Shown: positions 13,120-59,487 of the stretch, piece by piece
Layout: each line of letters opens with the position of its first letter
Numbering within the stretch: the first letter of the stretch is position 1
Assembly: GCA_007375645.1 (NCBI GenBank)
Contig: VMER01000001.1
Span: 337,576-401,575 of the forward strand
Direction: 5' to 3'
Source: Parcubacteria group bacterium LiPW_15
GTDB lineage: Bacteria; Patescibacteriota; Minisyncoccia; UBA6257; 2-01-FULL-56-20
Length of the DNA: 64,000 bases
The notes under the pieces: generated by a model
Seen by the model: the letters and a program-made list of their open reading frames with translations, nothing else
Databases searched by the model: none
What the model was told of the DNA's origin: nothing
Translations under genes and position numbers: made by a program

Positions 13120-13162
13120 GAACCAAGGGGTTGCAGGTTCGAGTCCTGCCGAGCGCACACCA
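13120..13162 (+). other. tRNA 3'-half-like fragment (T-arm GCAGG-TTCGAGT-CCTGC plus acceptor-like strand plus CCA) with no matching 5' half
   Basis: ...GGTTCGAGTCCTGCCGAGCGCACACCA lies immediately after tRNA-Arg; no complementary acceptor 5' strand found. Confidence 0.4.
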
Positions 13163-13227
13163 AACAAGAAATGCCCACAAGGGAGAGTTTTGTTTTATGT
13201 GCACAAAGCGTGCCGCTCAAGGGGATC

Positions 13228-13812
13228 TCACGCGCCCGCTTCGCCGCTCTCCGCGGGCAGGATCATTTTAATTTCTTCGAATTTGACGCCGCTCGGAAAA
13301 GTTAGCTGCGAAGGAATGCTCCCCGCCTCCACGAATCCCAAACTCTTATAAAAATCTATCGCTTTTTTATTCGCGGCTTGCACGGTTAAAAATATATCTT
13401 TCCCCGTTCCAAAATATTCGGAAATCTTGCCCCACATCTTCCGGGCCAACCCTAGGCCTTGATATGTCGGTAAGACATAGATCGCTCCGAGTTCATTACT
13501 TTCCGAATGTTTGACGCACCAGGCATAACCCACAACGGCATCGCCGTCTTTTATGACTAGCGCTTTTTCGTTCTCCGGCATGGCGCGCAATTCTTCGGCA
13601 GTTCCGACTATAGCCCTATCCGAAAACGACTTTTTAAAATCATTAAAATACCACTGAATGTCTTCGCGAGTTATGCCAGTTCCTTTGTCTGCATAGGTAT
13701 CCAGCCAGGTTTCGTATTCTACGCTTCTTAATCCCGCAGCGTCTTTGGGTAAAGCATCAGAGATACTAATCTTTTCTCCTTCAAACTTTTCGCCGTTTTC
13801 CATTTTAGGCAC
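13228..13812 (-). CDS. GNAT family N-acetyltransferase
   Basis: 194 aa; YVLPTYQGLGLARKMW...KAIDFYKSLGFVE acetyl-CoA-binding motifs. Confidence 0.8.
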   Translation of the reverse strand: MPKMENGEKFEGEKISISDALPKDAAGLRSVEYETWLDTYADKGTGITREDIQWYFNDFKKSFSDRAIVGTAEELRAMPENEKALVIKDGDAVVGYAWCVKHSESNELGAIYVLPTYQGLGLARKMWGKISEYFGTGKDIFLTVQAANKKAIDFYKSLGFVEAGSIPSQLTFPSGVKFEEIKMILPAESGEAGA

Positions 13813-35361: not shown

Positions 35362-35381
35362 CCTGCCTGCCGGCAGGCAGG
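35362..35381. repeat. perfect 20 bp palindrome CCTGCCTGCCGGCAGGCAGG (copy 1 of 3)
   Basis: exact match to copies at 51029 and 58962. Confidence 0.9.
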
Positions 35382-38698: not shown

Positions 38699-38772
38699 TG
38701 GAGCCGATGGAGGGAATCGAACCCACGTTTATGCTTTACGAAAGCACCGTTCTGCCATTGAACTACATCGGC
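38699..38772 (-). tRNA. tRNA-Thr (anticodon CGT), CCA encoded
   Basis: reverse complement folds as GCCGATG-TA-GTTC..; anticodon loop TTCGTAA; one U-U mismatch in the T-stem. Confidence 0.7.
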
Positions 38773-43228: not shown

Positions 43229-43690
43229 TCAATCGATAAGTTTCGGGTGCCGATACACGGCGATCACCTTCCTCCCCGCCGCTGCCTCCCCTTCGAAATC
43301 AAGCTTATGCTTTACGGGTTCCCCGTTTTTCGAGTTGTTGCTTATTGCCATATCCCCTCCCCAAAAAAATCCCGCATGCCCGTGCCTTCCGTCGGCAGTC
43401 TGAATCTCCTCCCAAAACAAAACATCCCCTTGTGAGGGTTCCTCAACCTTCTCCCATCCGCTCGATTCCATATCCCTCAAAAGACCGCTAACAGTTGTGT
43501 GAATTTCTTTTATAAGCCCGGCCATTAAGAGAATCGAAGAAACATAAAAAGCACAGGAAAGATCTCCATTTTTTAAAATATCTTTTTCCTCTCCATCCAC
43601 CAGAGCGTAACAGTTCCTATAGGTATTGGCACCCAAGCTGTTTTCGATGGATTTTAAATATGTCTTTTTTTTGAGTAGTTTTATCATTTT
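43229..43690 (-). CDS. putative CHAP/NlpC-P60-like cysteine peptidase domain protein
   Basis: about 153 aa from MIKLLKKK; conserved Cys (SCAFYVSS) and His (GHAGFF) spacing; weak call. Confidence 0.4.
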   Translation of the reverse strand, partial: KMIKLLKKKTYLKSIENSLGANTYRNCYALVDGEEKDILKNGDLSCAFYVSSILLMAGLIKEIHTTVSGLLRDMESSGWEKVEEPSQGDVLFWEEIQTADGRHGHAGFFWGGDMAISNNSKNGEPVKHKLDFEGEAAAGRKVIAVYRHPKLID

Positions 43691-43708
43691 CTTTGCAGGG
43701 TGGACCCG

Positions 43709-43889
43709 GGGAGATATCTCACGCGCTCGTTCCACTCGCTTTTCAGAACCCACGGTTCTGAATAATCTCCTCCACGGGGAACCGAGCGCGGTTCCCCGAC
43801 CCCCTCCGCTGTTCGATTCTCCCTTAATCATAGAATTAAATCAACCGACCATAAAGGCCGATTTGATTTAATTTGTGGACCCGGGGAGA
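43709..43889 (+). mobile_element. miniature tRNA-3'-end-associated element, copy A
   Basis: 15 bp direct repeat gtggacccggggaga at 43709..43723 and 43875..43889 (the tRNA-Ala(CGC) 3' end); conserved core at 43768..43823; nested-palindrome hairpin. Confidence 0.55.
43768..43823 (+). repeat. conserved core of the miniature element: TCCTCCACGG-ggaaccgagcgcggttcc-CCGACCCCCTccgctGTTCGATTCTCCC
   Basis: shares CCACGG..G(N)TTCCCCGACCCC..GTyCGAkTC with copies B (57205..57259) and C (50750..50843, minus strand); the last 13 nt are an inverted copy of the tRNA-Ala(CGC) T-arm. Confidence 0.6.
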
Positions 43890-43946
43890 ATCGAACTCCC
43901 GCCTCAGCAATGCGAATGCCGCGTTATGCCACTTAACTACGGGCCC
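43876..43946 (-). tRNA. tRNA-Ala (anticodon CGC), G3:U70, no encoded CCA
   Basis: reverse complement folds as GGGCCCG-TA-GTTA..; anticodon loop TTCGCAT; T-arm GGGAG-TTCGATT-CTCCC. Confidence 0.8.
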
Positions 43947-43998: not shown

Positions 43999-44817
43999 TT
44001 AGATCATCAATATCTCCACGATAAAAAGGGCTATCTCCACGACAATCAAAATTATCACCCAGATCTCCAGATAATTACTCTTCTGGGAGGAGAGATAGTT
44101 TAGAAGCGTGACGTTGTTTTCCGACAAAAAATCTATCTTTTCGTTCAAGACGTCGAATCTATCCCGGAGTTCATATTCTGTCCGCAATCGATTATAGAGC
44201 TGTTCTATTTCTTCTTTTTTCCAAGTCTCATCCGGCTTATCAAAAAGAGAGAGTCTCGAAACCGTGGTCTGTTTGACGGAAAGAACATTCCCGACCTGAC
44301 GCAAAACATCGCTTTGGTTAAAAGCCGCTTTCTTGCCGGACTTCATTCCGGCCACCACCTGCCCGAGTTCATGCAACCTCACATCTATCTCTTCCTCGTA
44401 TCTGTCGAGCGCCACAGATTGCGCCGAAACATAGGAGATTATCTTTATCTTTTCCACATCAAGGGTTTTAAGGAAGAGTTCTTCAAAAGTGGTTTTCTCT
44501 TCTTCGGCTCCGACGAATATTTCGAGTGAATCCGTGTGGCGATGGATTAGGGCTCCCTTCTCAATATACTGGTCGATTTCATTCAAGAATTCCCGAATAA
44601 GCGATTCGGTCGCATTCCAAAAACTTACGGCTCCGAAACGGGTCACGACCGCGTATTTATCTTCACCAAGCTCCGCAACAAGCGGATGATCGCGGTTCAA
44701 GAATTTATATTTTTTAACGTTCTCCAATATTCTCCTTACCTCAATCTTGTCTCCCACGTAGCGGGTTTCGAGTTTATATTCCCTTATCTTTGTCGGCTTC
44801 GCTTTGGCTCGAGGCAT
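43999..44817 (-). CDS. DUF155 (RMD1/YagE-like) family protein with C-terminal TM helix
   Basis: 272 aa; family call from memory only. Confidence 0.45.
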   Translation of the reverse strand: MPRAKAKPTKIREYKLETRYVGDKIEVRRILENVKKYKFLNRDHPLVAELGEDKYAVVTRFGAVSFWNATESLIREFLNEIDQYIEKGALIHRHTDSLEIFVGAEEEKTTFEELFLKTLDVEKIKIISYVSAQSVALDRYEEEIDVRLHELGQVVAGMKSGKKAAFNQSDVLRQVGNVLSVKQTTVSRLSLFDKPDETWKKEEIEQLYNRLRTEYELRDRFDVLNEKIDFLSENNVTLLNYLSSQKSNYLEIWVIILIVVEIALFIVEILMI

Positions 44818-45047: not shown

Positions 45048-45248
45048 CAACTACAATTTCATGTTTTGTCGAACCGGCGTCGCCCTTCCCCTGCGGAAGG
45101 GCGCGCCTGTATCTCGGATATAAAAATCCGCCACAACGGCGGAACCGGGCTTTTTATTCCTCCGATGACTTCGCCAAAACATGAAATTTCCGCGGAGACA
45201 AACACACGCGTTCTATGGCATATAAAAAGAATGGGAATCGAACAGCGG

Positions 45249-50414: not shown

Positions 50415-50460
50415 GAGTTTATTTTAACAGAAGTTTAGGCTCTCTTAAAGACGGCGTCTG

Positions 50461-50532
50461 TGGCTGGGGTGAGAATCGGACTCACGACCCGACGCTTATG
50501 AAACGTCTGCTCTACCACTGAGCTACCCAGCC
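50461..50532 (-). tRNA. tRNA-Met/Ile2 (anticodon CAT), elongator type, no encoded CCA
   Basis: reverse complement folds as GGCTGGG-TA-GCTC-AGTGGTA-GAGC..; anticodon loop TTCATAA. Confidence 0.8.
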
Positions 50533-50621
50533 ATTTGAGTGAATCAAATACATTTTTAGCATCAAATCACGTTTTTGACAATCCGCACTTTAGATATATA
50601 ATAACGAAGCAATTAATTACC

Positions 50622-50694
50622 GCGGGAGGATTAGGGAATGGTTTCCCGGGGAGCCCCATAAGCTCTTGAAGCTGGTCCGATTCCAGCTCCCGCA
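50622..50694 (+). ncRNA. non-canonical tRNA-like gene (perfect 7 bp acceptor stem GCGGGAG/CTCCCGC, T-arm GCTGG-TCCGATT-CCAGC, irregular D/anticodon region)
   Basis: 73 nt; acceptor and T-arm fold by hand, but no canonical anticodon arm; its 3' end is the direct-repeat target of element C. Confidence 0.45.
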
Positions 50695-50964
50695 ACAAGA
50701 AACAAAAACACCCCGAGGGGTGTTTTTGTTTTGATGTTGGAATCGGACGTGAAGGGGGTCGGGGAAACGGCGGTTGCTCGCGCAAGTAAACAAACGTCTT
50801 TCCGCCGATAGGCGGGGCCGTGGCGGAAATACTGCAATTGGTAGCGAGGATAAAATGGCATTGAACATTTTAGCCGAGCGAACCAATTGATGGCTTGTCC
50901 TTCAAACCGCGGGGTGTTAGAAAATTCGCAAAGCGAATTTTGTCTGCTTCCAGCTCCCGCAACA
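50681..50964 (-). mobile_element. miniature tRNA-3'-end-associated element, copy C
   Basis: 17 bp direct repeat ttccagctcccgcaaca at 50681..50697 (the tRNA-like 3' end) and 50948..50964; conserved core at 50750..50843 on the minus strand, with a roughly 45 nt expansion of the hairpin; spacer homologous to copy B. Confidence 0.55.
50704..50731. terminator. bidirectional intrinsic terminator / centre of a 22 bp nested palindrome
   Basis: aaaaacaccccgaggggtgttttt. Confidence 0.65.
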
Positions 50965-51028
50965 GCTTCAGTTTTCAATTTCGCGAAGACAGCGTCAACC
51001 GCTTCCAGCGAGCGGTTGCGCCTGAATC

Positions 51029-51048
51029 CCTGCCTGCCGGCAGGCAGG
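51029..51048. repeat. perfect 20 bp palindrome CCTGCCTGCCGGCAGGCAGG (copy 2 of 3)
   Basis: exact match; lies in a roughly 900 bp ORF-poor region. Confidence 0.9.
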
Positions 51049-51201
51049 TCGTAGCAAAAATCTGCCATTCGGCAGAACCAATCTTTTTGCTCCTCCAATG
51101 TCCTCCGCAAAATCGAAAACTTCCGCCGTGGAAGTAAGAGAAAAAAATATACAAAAAAAGCCGGTGTCCGCCACATACGTGGTTTCGTGTCCGGCTGCGC
51201 T

Positions 51202-51447
51202 TCACTGGGAAGCAGAGGTGGAATTCGGATTAAGCTTCGCCCGCAGCTCCGCGAGGAGCTCGACCGGATTGACGCCCCTGGCGTCCTTCGGTAGCAGGGC
51301 GCAGGCAGCCTCAACCAGCTTCTCCTCGAATGGGGTTCTTGTGTGGTTGGGGCTGGACTCATGGATTTCCCGGAGCGTCTTCAGAACGACGGTCATGAGC
51401 TTATCGTTCCCGAGCGATCGCAGATCGATTTCGTCCTTTTTGGGCAT
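51202..51447 (-). CDS. hypothetical small GC-rich protein
   Basis: 81 aa from the ATG preceded by a GAGAGGAG RBS. Confidence 0.4.
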   Translation of the reverse strand: MPKKDEIDLRSLGNDKLMTVVLKTLREIHESSPNHTRTPFEEKLVEAACALLPKDARGVNPVELLAELRAKLNPNSTSASQ

Positions 51448-57027: not shown

Positions 57028-57144
57028 CCCACAATCTTAAACCCAGGACCCGCGCATATCAAAACTCCCTTTCCCGTTCGAGCCGCTAGATTAAATGCTT
57101 ATTTCTAAATACCATGCCAGAGCCAACTTTAAATATCTTTCAAA

Positions 57145-57322
57145 GTCGGCCGGAATCAAACAAAATTTGCTTCTCAAATTTTCTAACACCTTGTGGTTTT
57201 AGTATTTCCACCACGGGGAAACTTCCGTTTCCCCGACCCCTTTCCCGTTCGAGTCCGGCTGGATACAGAGCAACCAAAAAATGCCCGATGGGCATATTTT
57301 GGTTGCTGCGCGGTCGGCCGGA
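57145..57322 (+). mobile_element. miniature tRNA-3'-end-associated element, copy B
   Basis: direct repeat gtcggccgga(N)tc at 57145..57157 and 57313..57325 (inside the tRNA-Asp 3' region); conserved core at 57205..57259; nested palindrome. Confidence 0.55.
57275..57300. terminator. bidirectional intrinsic terminator between element B and tRNA-Asp
   Basis: aaaaaatgcccgatgggcatatttt inside the outer stem gcaaccaaaa/ttttggttgc. Confidence 0.65.
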
Positions 57323-57383
57323 CTCGAACCGGTAACCCCCGCCGTGACAGGGCGGTGCTCTAACCAAATTGAGCTACGACCGC
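57309..57383 (-). tRNA. tRNA-Asp (anticodon GTC), no encoded CCA
   Basis: reverse complement folds as GCGGTCG-TA-GCTC..; anticodon loop CTGTCAC; T-arm CCGG-TTCGAGT-CCGG. Confidence 0.8.
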
Positions 57384-57429: not shown

Positions 57430-59487
57430 CTATCCGATGAGCCTTAGGAATTCCTTTTCGCTTAGGATTTTGACCCCCAGCTCTTTAGCCTTCTTATACT
57501 TACTCCCCGGCTCGGCACCGGCCACGAGATAAGAGGTTTTGGAGCTAACCGATTCGGAAACGTCTCCCCCAAGTTCTCTTATCTTTTGTTTCGCAAGCTC
57601 GCGAGACATGGAATCCATGGAACCGGTGATGACAAAAGAAAGGTCTTTCAGTTTTTCGACTTTCACCGAAGGCGGCGCGAGAACAATCACTACCCCGGCG
57701 GCTTCAAGCTTTCCCAAAAGATGAGTATTCCTTTTTTCCTTGAACCATTCGTAAATGCTTTCGGCGACTTTCGGACCAATATCTTTTATCTCTTGTAATC
57801 GCTCCAGCGAAAGTCCGCCGTAAAAGTTCAAAAATTTGGAAATGCTCAAGCGCCCACTCTTCTTCTCCGGAAATATATTCGCAAGGGTTATCGCAGTTTC
57901 TTCGCCCACATGAATTATTCCTAAGGAGTAAATAAAGCGTGAAAGAGGGACTGATCTTTTCGCTTCGACTTCTTTTATAACATTTTCCGCCGACTTTTCA
58001 CCGAAACGAGGCAGGGCTTCCACATCTCCTTGTTTCAGGGTAAAAATGTCCGCCGCATCGACTATCAAGCCCTCGTCCAATAATCTATCTATTATTTTTG
58101 GACCCAAACCGTCCAAATTAAATCCTCCGCGGGATATAAAATGATAAAGCTGCTCCCTGTGTCGCGCGCCGCAATACTTGTTGGAACATTTATAAGCCAC
58201 CCCGTCACGAATGACCCCGGACCCGTCTACGGGACAGTTCTCCGGCATCTTGAACTTTTTTTCCTTGCCGGTCCGGAACTCCGGCAAAACCTTGGTTATT
58301 TGCGGGATAACGTCTCCGGCCCGGGAAACGATAACTGTGTCGCCAACCCTTACCCCAAGCCGTTCTATCTCATCCGCATTATGAAGGCTCGCGTGGGTTA
58401 TGGTCACGCCGCCCACGTTCACCGGACGCATCACCGCGACCGGCGTCAGCGCCCCAGTACGACCGACCTGAACCTCTATCGCCTCCACAATGGTCGTGGC
58501 TTCCCTCGGAGAAAACTTGTAGGCGATTCCCGCGCGCGGAGTTTTGCCGATTATCCCCGCTTCTTCGTATGTGGCGTTGTCGTTTATGGAAATAACTATG
58601 CCGTCTATTTCATAAGCAAGGCGCTCTCTCATTTTTAGAACGTCTTTATGAAATTCGAATATCTCTTCTATATTTCTCGCAACTATGCCGTGCGGATTGG
58701 TTTTGAGCCCGTATTTATTGAGTTCGGCGTATTCCTCGGATTTTGTTCTGTATCCGGGAGTAACAACATCGTAGGCGTAAAAATCCAATTTCCTTGAGGC
58801 GGTTATCTTCGGATCCAATTGCCGTATGGAACCGGCGGCGACATTGCGAGGATTCGCATAGGGTTTTTCTCCTTTTTTCTCCTGCTCGCGGTTCAGCCTC
58901 GCAAATTCTTTTTTGGTCAGGAAGGTTTCCCCGCGAACGATGAGGCGCTTGGGATATCCGCCCTGCCTGCCGGCAGGCAGGTCCCCTCTCTCGAGTCTTA
59001 AGGGTATCGCGTCAATAGTTTTCAAATTTTCCGTGACATCTTCGCCGATCATGCCGTCTCCGCGCGTGGACCCGGAAACAAAGAGGCCATCTTCGTAGAT
59101 AAGCTCCATCGCGAGACCGTCCATTTTTAGATCGCAATAAAATCCGTTTTTTGCGAAACTAGTTTTGGGTCCGAAATAATTTTTTAGACGCGTGAGCCAT
59201 TCCTGAATATCCTGCGGGGAAAATGCGTCGTTTAGGGAGATCATCCGCGTTCCGTGCCTGACTTTTTTAAAAGCGGAAAGCGGCTTTCCCCCAACCCGTT
59301 GAGTCGGTGAATCTTTGGCAATAAATTCCGGATAGCGCGATTCCAGATCAAAAAGCTCCTTCTTTAAAGAGTCCAGGGCCCCTTCGGAAATAAGAGATTT
59401 ATCCAAAACATGGTACGCGTAGCGGTACTTATTTATTTCCGTCTTTAGTTTTTCGATACGCTTCTTGGCCTCATCCTTAGCCGTCAT
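57430..59487 (-). CDS. ligA: NAD-dependent DNA ligase
   Basis: 685 aa; adenylation KxDG region, OB fold, Zn finger, HhH and BRCT; carries an in-frame 7 aa insertion LPAGRQG encoded by the 20 bp palindrome. Confidence 0.95.
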   Translation of the reverse strand: MTAKDEAKKRIEKLKTEINKYRYAYHVLDKSLISEGALDSLKKELFDLESRYPEFIAKDSPTQRVGGKPLSAFKKVRHGTRMISLNDAFSPQDIQEWLTRLKNYFGPKTSFAKNGFYCDLKMDGLAMELIYEDGLFVSGSTRGDGMIGEDVTENLKTIDAIPLRLERGDLPAGRQGGYPKRLIVRGETFLTKKEFARLNREQEKKGEKPYANPRNVAAGSIRQLDPKITASRKLDFYAYDVVTPGYRTKSEEYAELNKYGLKTNPHGIVARNIEEIFEFHKDVLKMRERLAYEIDGIVISINDNATYEEAGIIGKTPRAGIAYKFSPREATTIVEAIEVQVGRTGALTPVAVMRPVNVGGVTITHASLHNADEIERLGVRVGDTVIVSRAGDVIPQITKVLPEFRTGKEKKFKMPENCPVDGSGVIRDGVAYKCSNKYCGARHREQLYHFISRGGFNLDGLGPKIIDRLLDEGLIVDAADIFTLKQGDVEALPRFGEKSAENVIKEVEAKRSVPLSRFIYSLGIIHVGEETAITLANIFPEKKSGRLSISKFLNFYGGLSLERLQEIKDIGPKVAESIYEWFKEKRNTHLLGKLEAAGVVIVLAPPSVKVEKLKDLSFVITGSMDSMSRELAKQKIRELGGDVSESVSSKTSYLVAGAEPGSKYKKAKELGVKILSEKEFLRLIG
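58962..58981. repeat. perfect 20 bp palindrome CCTGCCTGCCGGCAGGCAGG (copy 3 of 3), inside the ligA coding sequence
   Basis: exact match; ligA remains a continuous ORF across it. Confidence 0.9.

What the first reader, a model, noticed from the sequence alone, without database searches (positions are those of the whole stretch)
43709..43889. Conserved miniature element inserted at tRNA 3' ends, locus A at tRNA-Ala(CGC)
Between a 15 bp direct repeat of the tRNA-Ala(CGC) 3' end (gtggacccggggaga at 43709 and 43875) lies a 151 bp module. It has a putative promoter-like spacer, then the conserved core TCCTCCACGG-[GGGAACC..GGTTCCCC hairpin]-GACCCCCTCCGCT, then an inverted 13 nt copy of the same tRNA's T-loop/T-stem (GTTCGATTCTCCC), then a nested-palindrome hairpin abutting the tRNA. 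The same architecture and core recur at tRNA-Asp (57145..57322) and at a tRNA-like gene (50681..50964). Direct repeats of a tRNA 3' end are the classic signature of site-specific integration, but these elements are only 155-285 bp and encode no integrase. That suggests either a family of non-autonomous tRNA-targeting mini-elements or highly reduced attL remnants that keep a conserved core.
Basis: seen in the sequence. Interest (0 to 1): 0.85.

Follow-up and report, generated by a model that had tools for sequence, protein, structure and literature searches.

The report
Triplex-core mini-elements beside CPR tRNA genes
The three look-alike modules next to tRNA genes are real copies of a previously undescribed, widespread family of small non-coding elements in Patescibacteria, which has a triple-helix-forming core and sits between a direct and an inverted copy of the neighbouring gene's end.

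Summary
The left repeat is at 43700-43714, not 43709. The 'promoter-like spacer' is a covarying hairpin. The window (Parcubacteria bacterium LiPW_15) has three full copies and at least two fragments.

The core motif recurs in over 200 loci, almost all in Patescibacteria. Only one hit came from 2.9 million viral contigs, and there is no Rfam family.

The geometry is constant: left copy of a gene end, then hairpins, then TCCnCCA-hairpin-third strand, then an inverted copy of the same gene end, then the spacer or terminator, then the intact gene. About half the targets are convergent tRNA 3' ends. Others are tmRNA-like, rpsI, rplL and rpsJ 3' ends and the fusA 5' end.

The core's 3' pyrimidine tract covaries with the hairpin's purine arm in parallel register (0 of 5000 shuffles reach it). 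This indicates an intramolecular triple helix.

Three things indicate spread between sites: presence/absence at orthologous loci, identical interiors at different targets, and different subfamilies at one target. No ORF or constant neighbouring gene exists. An orthologous copy at tRNA-Asp shows purifying selection on the core and on the locus-specific repeat.

I read it as a non-autonomous, target-copying mobile or domesticated element. Its mechanism and active strand are unresolved. It is not an integrase att remnant.

The parts
43875..43946 (-). tRNA-Ala(CGC), the intact target gene of locus A
   Evidence: ARAGORN and Rfam tRNA at 63.5 bits
43824..43874 (.). Spacer with a hairpin that looks like a terminator, between the inverted copy and the tRNA
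   Evidence: Terminator-like stem at 43843-43863 on the - strand; nested palindrome (I1)
43811..43823 (+). A': an inverted copy of tRNA-Ala positions G53-C65 (T-loop plus 3' T-stem), GTTCGATTCTCCC
   Evidence: In the family, A' starts sharply at G53 and ends at variable positions. It copies the 3' strand, not the 5' strands (25 of 26 informative positions).
43768..43807 (+). Conserved core: pre-core TCCTCCA, hairpin P1 43775-43798 (purine arm GGGGAACC, pyrimidine arm GGTTCCCC), linker A at 43799, third strand CCCCCTCC at 43800-43807
   Evidence: Parallel-register covariation of the third strand with the purine arm.
43742..43762 (+). Hairpin H2: TTCAGAACC-CAC-GGTTCTGAA
   Evidence: Stem sequence differs but pairing is kept across about 100 copies; also present in the MFE fold
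43700..43722 (+). Left direct copy of the tRNA-Ala 3' end (43700-43714, reverse complement of the T-stem 3' strand, acceptor 3' strand, discriminator and one more base), followed by the T-loop-complement-like TATCTCAC
   Evidence: The same copy is conserved in relatives that lack the element. The ATCTCAC/ATCGAAC motif recurs after the left copies.
57308..57383 (-). tRNA-Asp(GTC), the intact target gene of locus B
57145..57307 (+). Element B. Left copy 57145-57161; H1 57162-57182; H2 57183-57202; pre-core and P1 57207-57235; third strand CCCCTTTC 57237-57244; A' GTTCGAGTCCGGC 57247-57259; spacer with bidirectional terminator-like hairpin 57260-57307
   Evidence: The orthologous copy in a relative gives identities of core 45/46, left copy 17/17, H2 19/22, spacer 21/44, H1 9/23.
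50622..50694 (+). Non-canonical tRNA-like gene (anticodon loop CCCAUAA), the target of locus C
   Evidence: Rfam tRNA-Sec model at 33.5 bits, below its gathering score. Perfect TTGACA-16-TATAAT at 50575-50602. Conserved in a relative, with compensatory T-stem changes.
50700..50731 (.). Native terminator hairpin of the tRNA-like gene, which forms the spacer of locus C
   Evidence: 15-bp perfect inverted repeat. A homologous terminator follows the gene in the relative that lacks the element.
50736..50964 (-). Element C, on the opposite strand. A' at 50736-50748; third strand and expanded P1 at 50751-50827; H2 at about 50902-50921; H1 at about 50921-50941; left copy at 50935-50964
   Evidence: nhmmer 22.9 bits
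45232..45248 (-). Truncated remnant of another copy 184 nt 3' of tRNA-Pro(CGG): TGGGAATCGAAC (inverted T-arm copy) plus AGCGG (the first bases of the element)
13210..13235 (+). Remnant that looks like an element's left end: a tRNA-3'-end complement followed by TCTCAC-GCGC, with no core after it
   Evidence: similarity to 43700-43729 judged by eye

Best explanation
**What it is.** These are copies of a Patescibacteria-wide family of non-coding, structured elements of about 100-250 nt. They have spread, and in places still differ, between the ends of tRNA genes and other heavily used genes.

**Parts of each copy.**
- A conserved interior, made of a hairpin (H2) and a second hairpin (P1).
- P1's purine arm, its pyrimidine arm and a following pyrimidine tract together form an intramolecular triple helix.
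- A locus-specific frame: a direct copy of the neighbouring gene's end on the far side, and an inverted copy of the same end next to the core.
- The direct and inverted copies can pair with each other and close the element into a stem-loop. The inverted copy can alternatively pair with the gene itself across the terminator.

**How it most likely works (inferred, not shown).**
- The element is non-autonomous.
- It moves through a single-stranded intermediate by a copying or template-switch process.
- Its T-loop-like ends give microhomology to any tRNA T-loop, and the polymerase then copies a variable stretch of the target.
- The gene stays intact because its end is duplicated, not interrupted.
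- At least some copies are afterwards kept by selection in the host.

**Shown versus inferred.** Shown: the family, its geometry, the triplex covariation, gain and loss between relatives, the lack of coding capacity, and selection on one orthologous copy. Inferred: the transposition mechanism, the active strand, whether the folded form is RNA or DNA, and the benefit to the host.
For: **Family and distribution**
- At least 119 genome loci, nearly all Patescibacteria and often several per genome.
- At least 120 metagenome loci found with a different anchor.
- 1 hit in the viral contigs. No Rfam match.

**Geometry**
- 63 of 120 genome-set copies have a convergent tRNA 0-200 nt downstream. In the metagenome set it is 39 of 77, with none on the same strand.
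- Direct and inverted repeats are far above the control rate.
- A' starts at G53 and ends at variable positions. The left copy reaches the tRNA 3' end in 42 of 60 loci.
- A' copies the 3' strand at 25 of 26 informative positions.
- Non-tRNA targets were identified by Pfam.

**Triple helix**
- 20 distinct purine arms give 116 of 133 in-register G-to-C and A-to-T matches. Shuffles give 97.7 +/- 3.4, and 0 of 5000 reach the observed value.
- Individual variants such as GGAGAAA with CCCTCTTC and GGGAGAGA with CCCCTCTCT support it.

**Mobility**
- tRNA-Ala(CGC) and the tRNA-like gene carry the element in the window but not in relatives.
- tRNA-Thr(CGT) carries one in L122 but not in the window.
- Interiors are 87/87 identical at tRNA-Thr, a tmRNA-like end and tRNA-Gln. 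Two of these copies are in one genome and the third is in another.
- The window's Ala copy is 82/91 identical to a copy at tRNA-Lys in a Liptonbacteria genome, but only 61/91 identical to the window's own Asp copy.
- Four different subfamilies sit at the rpsI 3' end in four genomes.
- Truncated remnants exist.

**Non-autonomy**
- Loop lengths of 3-6 nt break any reading frame.
- No protein family is consistently adjacent.

**Selection**
- In the orthologous Asp copy, identity is 98% in the core and 100% in the left copy, against 39-52% in the spacer, H1 and flank.
Against: - No transposase, reverse transcriptase or recombinase partner was identified. No intermediate, excision footprint or clean filled-versus-empty pair in near-identical strains was found.
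- The direct repeat is not a classical target-site duplication. Its length varies from 10 to 61 nt. At the tRNA-like locus the block lies beyond the native terminator. At tRNA-Ala the downstream tRNA-end copy exists in relatives without the element.
- Strong conservation of a locus-specific repeat fits a host function better than a purely selfish element.
- The folded strand is unresolved. Wobble-type mismatches in P1 (16 A.C against 4 G.T on the element's + strand) and occasional A in the third strand favour the tRNA-sense strand. Fold z-scores are slightly better for the + strand.
- The genome-set sample was selected with an exact core pattern, which inflates apparent core conservation. The metagenome set corrects this only for the 3' half.
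Confidence: 0.55

Rival explanations
1. It is a host-functional cis-acting module or small RNA tied to the neighbouring gene, not a mobile element. The arrangement is gene end (1), inverted copy (2), structured core, second copy (3). This allows alternative 1:2 or 2:3 pairing, as in an attenuator or a riboswitch P1 helix. It could control maturation or read-through of the tRNA transcript, mark the boundary between the tRNA and the downstream co-directional gene, or protect 3' ends. Copies would arise by local duplication, and the interior would be homogenised by gene conversion.
For: - Purifying selection on the core and on the locus-specific left copy, including two positions that differ from the tRNA.
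- The tRNA-end copy 12 nt upstream of the downstream gene's start codon is conserved even in relatives without the element.
- All three window copies lie between a tRNA and a co-directional downstream gene.
- G.T wobbles fall on the tRNA-sense strand.
- Significant fold z-scores.
Against: - Element orientation is fixed relative to the side on which the target lies, not to transcription. In L109, L019 and L091 the core is in the gene's sense, but at tRNA 3' ends it is antisense. A folded RNA cannot work in both orientations.
- Identical interiors at unrelated targets, and different subfamilies at one target, need transfer between loci.
- Elements are gained and lost between close relatives.
- No promoter on the + strand.
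- The terminator-like hairpin lies between the gene and the element.
Confidence: 0.25
2. It is a by-product of replication trouble. The triplex- and hairpin-forming core stalls forks near heavily transcribed genes and provokes template switching. This duplicates and inverts the adjacent gene end. The core spreads passively through such events, with no dedicated machinery or function.
For: - The mirror-repeat homopurine/homopyrimidine core is the classic sequence requirement for H-DNA (H-DNA property from general knowledge).
- Targets are tRNA, tmRNA-like, ribosomal-protein and EF-G genes.
- Repeat lengths vary, and A' has a fixed start and a variable end, as expected for polymerase run-off.
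- Tandem and nested arrangements occur, for example in L002.
Against: - It does not explain why H2 and the pre-core are conserved together with the triplex.
- It does not explain the 98-100% conservation of an orthologous copy.
- It does not explain the second context in Saccharibacteria and Taylorbacteria, where the same core sits in a roughly 230-nt multi-copy unit with its own arms away from tRNAs.
Confidence: 0.1
3. These are highly reduced attL/attR scars of integrase-driven genomic islands or prophages that once sat in these tRNA genes.
For: - Direct repeats of tRNA 3' ends.
- This lineage clearly has other tRNA-end and tRNA-start remnants, showing that tRNA genes are repeatedly hit.
Against: - No integrase or other recurrent ORF lies next to about 120 copies.
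- The same conserved interior occurs in distant classes, from Saccharibacteria to Paceibacteria.
- Non-tRNA targets exist.
- An inverted target copy is always present.
- The block lies beyond the terminator.
- Only one hit in the viral contigs.
Confidence: 0.04

Closest known systems
MITEs and REP/REPIN-type bacterial interspersed repeats (non-autonomous, mobilised in trans)
   Same: Small, multi-copy and ORF-less. Intergenic, often at gene 3' ends. Hairpin-rich. Subfamilies are shared across genomes, and presence differs between relatives.
   Different: The terminal inverted repeats are not element-encoded. They are copied from the local target, so they differ at every locus. The flanking direct repeat is long and variable (10-61 nt) instead of a fixed short duplication. 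No related autonomous IS or RAYT gene was seen. The core is a triple-helix motif.
tRNA-targeting integrative elements (tyrosine-integrase islands and prophages with attL/attR repeats of the tRNA 3' end)
   Same: The tRNA 3' end is duplicated in direct orientation, and the gene remains intact.
   Different: No integrase and no cargo. An extra inverted copy is present. Some targets are not tRNAs. Repeat length varies. At one locus the block sits after the terminator.
Single-stranded-DNA integration through folded hairpin sites (CTX-type phages using XerCD; integron attC sites)
   Same: After such integration, one junction carries an inverted pair of site copies next to the functional site and the other junction carries a single copy. 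This is the same left copy ... inverted copy-spacer-intact site layout. Structure on one strand matters. (Layout recalled from general knowledge, not tested.)
   Different: Those systems have one fixed target (dif or attI) and a known recombinase. Here there are dozens of different targets and no identified enzyme.
Class C bacterial group II introns
   Same: They choose sites immediately after intrinsic terminator hairpins, and the mobile RNA pairs with the target. (General knowledge.)
   Different: There are no ribozyme domains and no reverse transcriptase. A survey of Patescibacteria reported no group II introns (PMC13011429, abstract). Group II introns make no target duplications.
RNA triple-helix elements (ENE/MALAT1-type 3'-end triplexes next to a tRNA-like structure) and H-DNA mirror repeats
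   Same: A hairpin whose groove is occupied by a third strand, placed next to tRNA-like sequence. The homopurine/homopyrimidine mirror symmetry is as in H-DNA.
   Different: In ENEs, U-rich loops clamp an A-rich tail. Here the motif is a contiguous purine arm, loop, pyrimidine arm, turn and third strand rich in C.G-C type triples. It is a bacterial, multi-copy element, and whether the triplex is RNA or DNA is unknown.
IS110/IS1111 bridge (seek) RNAs and TnpB/IscB omega RNAs
   Same: A structured non-coding scaffold lies adjacent to a segment that matches the insertion target.
   Different: Those guides are fixed for each element and work with an encoded recombinase or nuclease. Here near-identical interiors carry different target copies, so the target-matching segment is rewritten at each locus. 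No such protein gene is adjacent, and no Rfam omega-RNA hit was found.

Membership tests
Integrase-mediated tRNA-gene island (att remnant) | Tyrosine or serine integrase gene next to one att site | tested here: not met
   No ORF inside the elements. No protein family recurs within 2.7 kb of about 120 copies. Window neighbours are housekeeping genes.
Integrase-mediated tRNA-gene island (att remnant) | Direct repeats of the tRNA 3' end bounding the inserted DNA, which starts inside the tRNA gene | tested here: inconclusive
   Direct repeats are present. However, the block lies beyond the native terminator at the tRNA-like locus, and an inverted copy is also present.
Integrase-mediated tRNA-gene island (att remnant) | Target restricted to tRNA or tmRNA genes | tested here: not met
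   rpsI, rplL and rpsJ 3' ends, and fusA and glycosyltransferase 5' ends
MITE | Terminal inverted repeats conserved among copies and shared with a parent IS | tested here: not met
   The bracketing inverted repeats are locus-specific copies of the target. No parent IS was seen.
MITE | Short target-site duplication of fixed length | tested here: not met
   Direct repeats of 10-61 nt, with a mode of 14-18
MITE | Small, multi-copy, non-coding, polymorphic between genomes | tested here: met
REP/REPIN with RAYT | RAYT (IS200/IS605-like Y1) transposase gene in the genome, flanked by the repeats | not testable with these tools
   Whole genomes could not be scanned. None was seen in the 8-kb loci.
IS110/IS1111 bridge-RNA element | DEDD recombinase gene with an adjacent bridge RNA, and one fixed target sequence per element | tested here: not met
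   No adjacent ORF. Identical interiors occur at different targets.
Group II intron (class C) | Six-domain ribozyme and an intron-encoded reverse transcriptase | tested here: not met
   The element is 100-250 nt with no Rfam intron hit and no ORF
Known structured RNA family (Rfam 15) | Match to any of 4227 covariance models | tested here: not met
   Only tRNAs reach gathering scores. Nothing credible at E up to 10 over the loci.
Intramolecular triple helix (purine arm, pyrimidine arm, third strand) | Third strand covaries with the purine strand of a Watson-Crick hairpin in the register required for Hoogsteen pairing | tested here: met
   116 of 133 against 97.7 +/- 3.4 in shuffles; 0 of 5000 reach the observed value; 20 arm types; examples
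Intramolecular triple helix (purine arm, pyrimidine arm, third strand) | Physical formation of the triplex (pH or Mg dependence, probing) | not testable with these tools
   Needs oligonucleotide biophysics

The most novel reading that the evidence does not exclude
This is a new class of prokaryotic mobile element with no fixed ends. A conserved triple-helix and hairpin core is propagated by a copying mechanism that writes a direct and an inverted copy of the target gene's end around each new insertion. It would prefer tRNA T-loops through microhomology, and some copies have been domesticated as tRNA-linked structural or regulatory modules in the reduced genomes of Patescibacteria.
Probability: 0.35. 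Interest if true: 0.9.

Novelty: new variant of a known kind. Interest (0 to 1): 0.8.

Why it matters
Patescibacteria make up a large share of bacterial diversity, and almost nothing is known about their non-coding or mobile DNA.

- **Abundance.** This family has several copies per small genome and sits at tRNA, tmRNA-like and ribosomal-protein genes. It is invisible to current annotation, which instead calls spurious ORFs across it, such as 43229-43831.
- **Structure.** It offers a natural triple helix supported by covariation across 20 sequence variants, which is rare for bacteria.
- **Mechanism.** Its insertion geometry, with inverted and direct repeats derived from the target, is not explained by the known transposition mechanisms considered here. 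Working out its mechanism could reveal a new way of moving DNA or of regulating tRNA genes.
- **Practical use.** The motif is a marker for Patescibacteria contigs. It also explains many partial tRNA hits in these genomes.

Tried and rejected
- **Archaeal split or permuted tRNA.** Rejected: the proteins are bacterial and CPR-like.
- **Known RNA family.** No Rfam match.
- **Promoter in the 'spacer'.** The region is the H2 hairpin, and no sigma-70-like site lies on that strand.
- **Small protein.** Loop lengths of 3-6 nt break any frame.
- **Insertion into the T-loop of a second tRNA copy**, so that the post-core segment would be the complement of the 5' strands. Rejected: 25 of 26 informative positions match the 3' strand.
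- **Minimal tRNA or tmRNA-like gene.** The same geometry occurs with non-tRNA sequence.
- **Guide RNA with a fixed guide (bridge RNA, omega RNA, CAST homing crRNA).** Rejected: identical interiors carry different target copies, and there is no partner gene.
- **DGR template/variable-repeat pair.** The A-specific differences seen at the Asp locus did not generalise.
- **In-frame read-through of 5' duplications.** True for L091 (186 nt) but not L019 (158 nt).
- **G.U in H2 as a strand marker.** It turned out to be a bulge on either strand, so it is uninformative.
- **Comparison of fold energies of the two strands.** Confounded by G+T content and not used.
- **The 140-nt difference between L120 and L121.** It is an assembly gap of Ns, not an insertion polymorphism.
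- **RNAalifold on the MAFFT alignment.** It recovered only P1 because H2 was misaligned, so no covariance model was built. nhmmer was used instead.
- **Literature searches.** Searches by topic and by the motif sequence found no description.

Full report
**1. What is in the window**

The window is from a Patescibacteria (CPR) bacterium.
- The proteins around the finding are PheS/PheT, a CCA-adding enzyme, a MurD-like ligase, GatA and LigA.
- The DUF155 protein at 43999-44817 is 100% identical to a protein of 'Parcubacteria group bacterium LiPW_15'.
- ARAGORN and Rfam find ten tRNAs.

They alone carry exact copies of TTCCCCGACCCC and TCCNCCACGG. A profile built from relatives finds exactly three full copies.

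- The left repeat of locus A is at 43700-43714.
- The inverted 13-mer is at 43811-43823.
- The interval between the repeats is 160 nt.

**2. The family**

Nearly all are Patescibacteria (Paceibacteria/Parcubacteria groups, Saccharibacteria and others), often with several loci per genome. About ten hits in other phyla lack the rest of the architecture, which is roughly the number expected by chance.

A second scan of metagenomes was anchored only on the upstream hairpin and pre-core. It also saturated, at 120 loci. Only one of 2.9 million viral contigs matched. No Rfam family matches, even at permissive thresholds. Text searches, including for the motif itself, found no description.

**3. Anatomy**

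Read in the sense of the core, every copy has the same order of parts:
- a left copy 'A' of a nearby gene end;
- a variable hairpin H1;
- a conserved hairpin H2 (for example GGGAAACC-CAC-GGTTTTCCC) whose stem changes while staying paired;
- sometimes a third hairpin;
- the pre-core TCCnCCA;
- hairpin P1, a one-base linker and a pyrimidine tract;
- an inverted copy A' of the same gene end;
- a spacer, usually a terminator-like hairpin;
- the intact gene, which contains A.

For 60 tRNA-linked copies:
- A' begins sharply at G53 and ends anywhere between about positions 63 and 76.
- The left copy reaches the tRNA 3' end in 42 of 60 loci, usually plus 0-3 bases.
- The left copy starts at position 53, 57 or 60.

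A' copies the tRNA's 3' strand and is not the complement of its 5' strands (25 of 26 informative positions).

In the independent metagenome sample:
- direct repeats of at least 12 nt flank 38 of 77 elements (control 8 of 231);
- inverted target copies of at least 9 nt occur in 56 of 77 (control 8 of 231);
- 39 of 77 have a convergent tRNA or tmRNA within 200 nt, and none has one on the same strand.

**4. Targets are not only tRNA 3' ends**

The same geometry occurs at other gene ends:
- the 5' end of a tRNA-Leu (L109; the repeat covers tRNA positions 1-26);
- a tmRNA-like 3' end (L111);
- the 3' ends of rpsI, in four genomes with four different subfamilies;
- the 3' ends of rplL and rpsJ;
- the 5' coding ends of fusA and a glycosyltransferase;
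- upstream of dnaA.

The element always points its core-A' side at the intact target, whichever way the target is transcribed. That is hard to reconcile with a purely RNA-level cis-regulator.

**5. The core is a triple-helix motif**

The sample that was unbiased for the core's 3' half contains 20 different purine arms in P1. The pyrimidine arm pairs with each of them (89 of 114 unique cores are perfect). The tract after the linker follows the purine arm in parallel register, with G matched by C and A by T. Examples:
- GGGGAAA with CCCCCTTC
- GGGAAAA with CCCCTTTC
- GGAAAAA with CCCTTTTC
- GGGAGA with CCCCTCTC
- GGGAGAGA with CCCCTCTCT
- GGAGGGGA with CCCACCCCTC

Taking one representative per arm type gives 116 of 133 matches, against 97.7 +/- 3.4 for shuffled partners. 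None of 5000 shuffles reaches the observed value.

A parallel register cannot be Watson-Crick pairing. It is what a Hoogsteen third strand requires. There are two readings:
- a pyrimidine-motif triplex on the element's + strand;
- equivalently, a purine-motif triplex on the complementary, tRNA-sense strand.

Which strand folds is not settled:
- Wobble-type mismatches in P1 are 16 A.C against 4 G.T on the + strand.
- The third strand sometimes has A opposite an A-T pair.
- The closing stem at tRNA-Asp has a G.T on the tRNA-sense strand.
- These three points favour the tRNA-sense strand.
- Fold z-scores are significant for both strands and slightly better for the + strand.

**6. Evidence for spread**

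Comparison with relatives:
- The closest relatives (neighbouring proteins 88%, 71% and 61% identical) lack the element at tRNA-Ala(CGC).
- The relative GCA_964530925.1 has the tRNA-like gene with a homologous terminator but no element.
- L122 has a diverged element at tRNA-Thr(CGT), where the window has none.

Comparison of interiors:
- Interiors are 87/87 identical at tRNA-Thr and a tmRNA-like end in one genome, and at tRNA-Gln in another.
- The window's Ala copy is 90% identical to a copy at tRNA-Lys in a Liptonbacteria genome, but 67% identical to the window's Asp copy.

Truncated remnants occur at 45232-45248 and 13210-13235. No ORF fits inside, and no protein family is consistently adjacent.

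**7. Evidence for retention**

The tRNA-Asp element is orthologous in GCA_964530925.1. Identity by region is:

| Region | Identity |
|---|---|
| Core | 45/46 |
| Locus-specific left copy, including two bases that differ from the tRNA | 17/17 |
| H2 | 19/22 |
| Spacer | 21/44 |
| H1 | 9/23 |
| Flank | 75/145 |

At tRNA-Ala, the downstream copy TCTCCCCGGGTCCAC lies 12 nt before the next gene's start. It is conserved in all relatives, where it is part of a longer tRNA remnant carrying a 22-nt palindrome in its T-loop instead of the element. So the repeat is not simply a target-site duplication made by this element, and something at these sites is under constraint.

**8. Interpretation**

The best-supported reading is a non-autonomous family of structured elements that spreads between gene ends and writes target-derived repeats around itself. 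Some copies are maintained by selection.

The mechanism I favour is a single-stranded intermediate with copy-choice synthesis primed through T-loop-like microhomology. It fits three observations:
- the fixed start and variable end of A';
- the fixed outer end of the left copy;
- the T-loop-like element ends (ATCGAAC/ATCTCAC on the left, GTTCGAWTC on the right).

It remains an inference.

The rivals are a host regulatory or processing module, a replication-stall by-product of H-DNA, and integrase att scars. They are weighed in the dedicated fields. The last is essentially excluded.

**9. Comparison with known systems and novelty**

The element fails the defining tests for integrase islands, MITEs, bridge-RNA elements, group II introns and every Rfam family.
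- Functionally it most resembles interspersed non-autonomous repeats.
- In layout it resembles hairpin-site single-strand integration.

I classify it conservatively as a new variant of a known kind (bacterial interspersed non-coding elements). I put a probability of about 0.35 on it representing a new mechanism of mobility.

Noticed in passing
window 50575-50694: A non-canonical tRNA-like gene. It has a 6-bp D-stem with a 4-nt loop, anticodon loop CCCAUAA (CAU with C33) and T-loop UCCGAUU. ARAGORN misses it, and it is below the Rfam tRNA-Sec threshold at 33.5 bits. A perfect TTGACA-16-TATAAT promoter drives it. It is conserved in a relative, with two compensatory T-stem pair changes. The neighbouring tRNA-Met (50460-50532) shares the unusual UCCGAUU T-loop.
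   Followed up: partly
window 35362-35381, 51029-51048, 58962-58981; L120 5106-5125 and 8508-8527; L124 5015-5034: A perfect 20-22-nt palindrome, CC(C)TGCCTGCCGGCAGGCAGG(G), is a second dispersed repeat. In relatives it sits in the T-loop of tRNA-Ala and tRNA-Thr remnants. In the window, one copy sits in the D-loop of a tRNA-Gln 5' remnant and another lies inside the LigA reading frame.
   Followed up: partly
L120 8388-8560 versus window 38699-38772: At the tRNA-Thr(CGT) locus the relative has a different, complete tRNA-Thr(CGT) upstream. The window-type tRNA survives there only as a 3' remnant (anticodon stem to 3' end) with the palindrome in its T-loop, still adjacent to the RF-1 gene. This looks like replacement of the tRNA gene.
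   Followed up: partly
L121 5650-5990 (relative GCA_964530925.1): Upstream of tRNA-Ala(TGC) lies an array of tRNA-Ala 5' fragments. Each is split in the D-loop and cut after anticodon-loop position 35 by other small inserts with TCCCGA...GGGTCGGGA ends. Position 35/36 is the group I intron site reported for Patescibacteria tRNAs (PMC13011429).
   Followed up: no
window 50460-50700 versus L247 2664-2986: The segment carrying tRNA-Met and the tRNA-like gene is inverted relative to PheS and MurD between the window genome and its relative. The relative also has about 110 extra bases with a core-like GGGGTCGGGA between the two RNA genes.
   Followed up: no
window 57067-57082: A second exact copy of CCCTTTCCCGTTCGAG (third strand plus the start of the inverted T-loop copy) lies 171 nt from the one in the tRNA-Asp element. 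It is probably the remnant of an older tandem copy.
   Followed up: no
window 13133-13158: An orphan tRNA 3' fragment (T-arm plus acceptor strand, GCAGGTTCGAGTCCTGCCGAGCGCAC) lies 40 nt downstream of tRNA-Arg(TCG). It is followed by a terminator-like hairpin and by the element-left-end-like fragment at 13210-13235.
   Followed up: no
L007, L038, L072, L028; L069, L110, L047, L065; L020, L030, L080: In some Saccharibacteria and Taylorbacteria genomes the same H2 and triplex core sits inside a roughly 230-nt unit. The unit has its own conserved arms and terminal hairpins, is present in four or more near-identical copies per genome, and is not next to tRNAs (one copy is upstream of dnaA). In L080 one copy is itself interrupted by an insertion.
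   Followed up: partly
L002 (Yonathbacteria) around the tRNA-Gly(TCC): Two different elements lie in tandem at one tRNA. Each is followed by the same inverted copy and spacer. The second has an unrelated interior (TCTCGGTCACGAGTTAC...CTCGACCCCGCCTC). This suggests that other families share the same insertion geometry.
   Followed up: no
window 43229-43831 (-), 57114-57335 (+), 50631-51362 (-): Mechanical ORFs run across the elements. The real start of the 154-aa Amidase_5-like gene is the ATG at 43693. Annotation pipelines could extend genes through these elements.
   Followed up: partly
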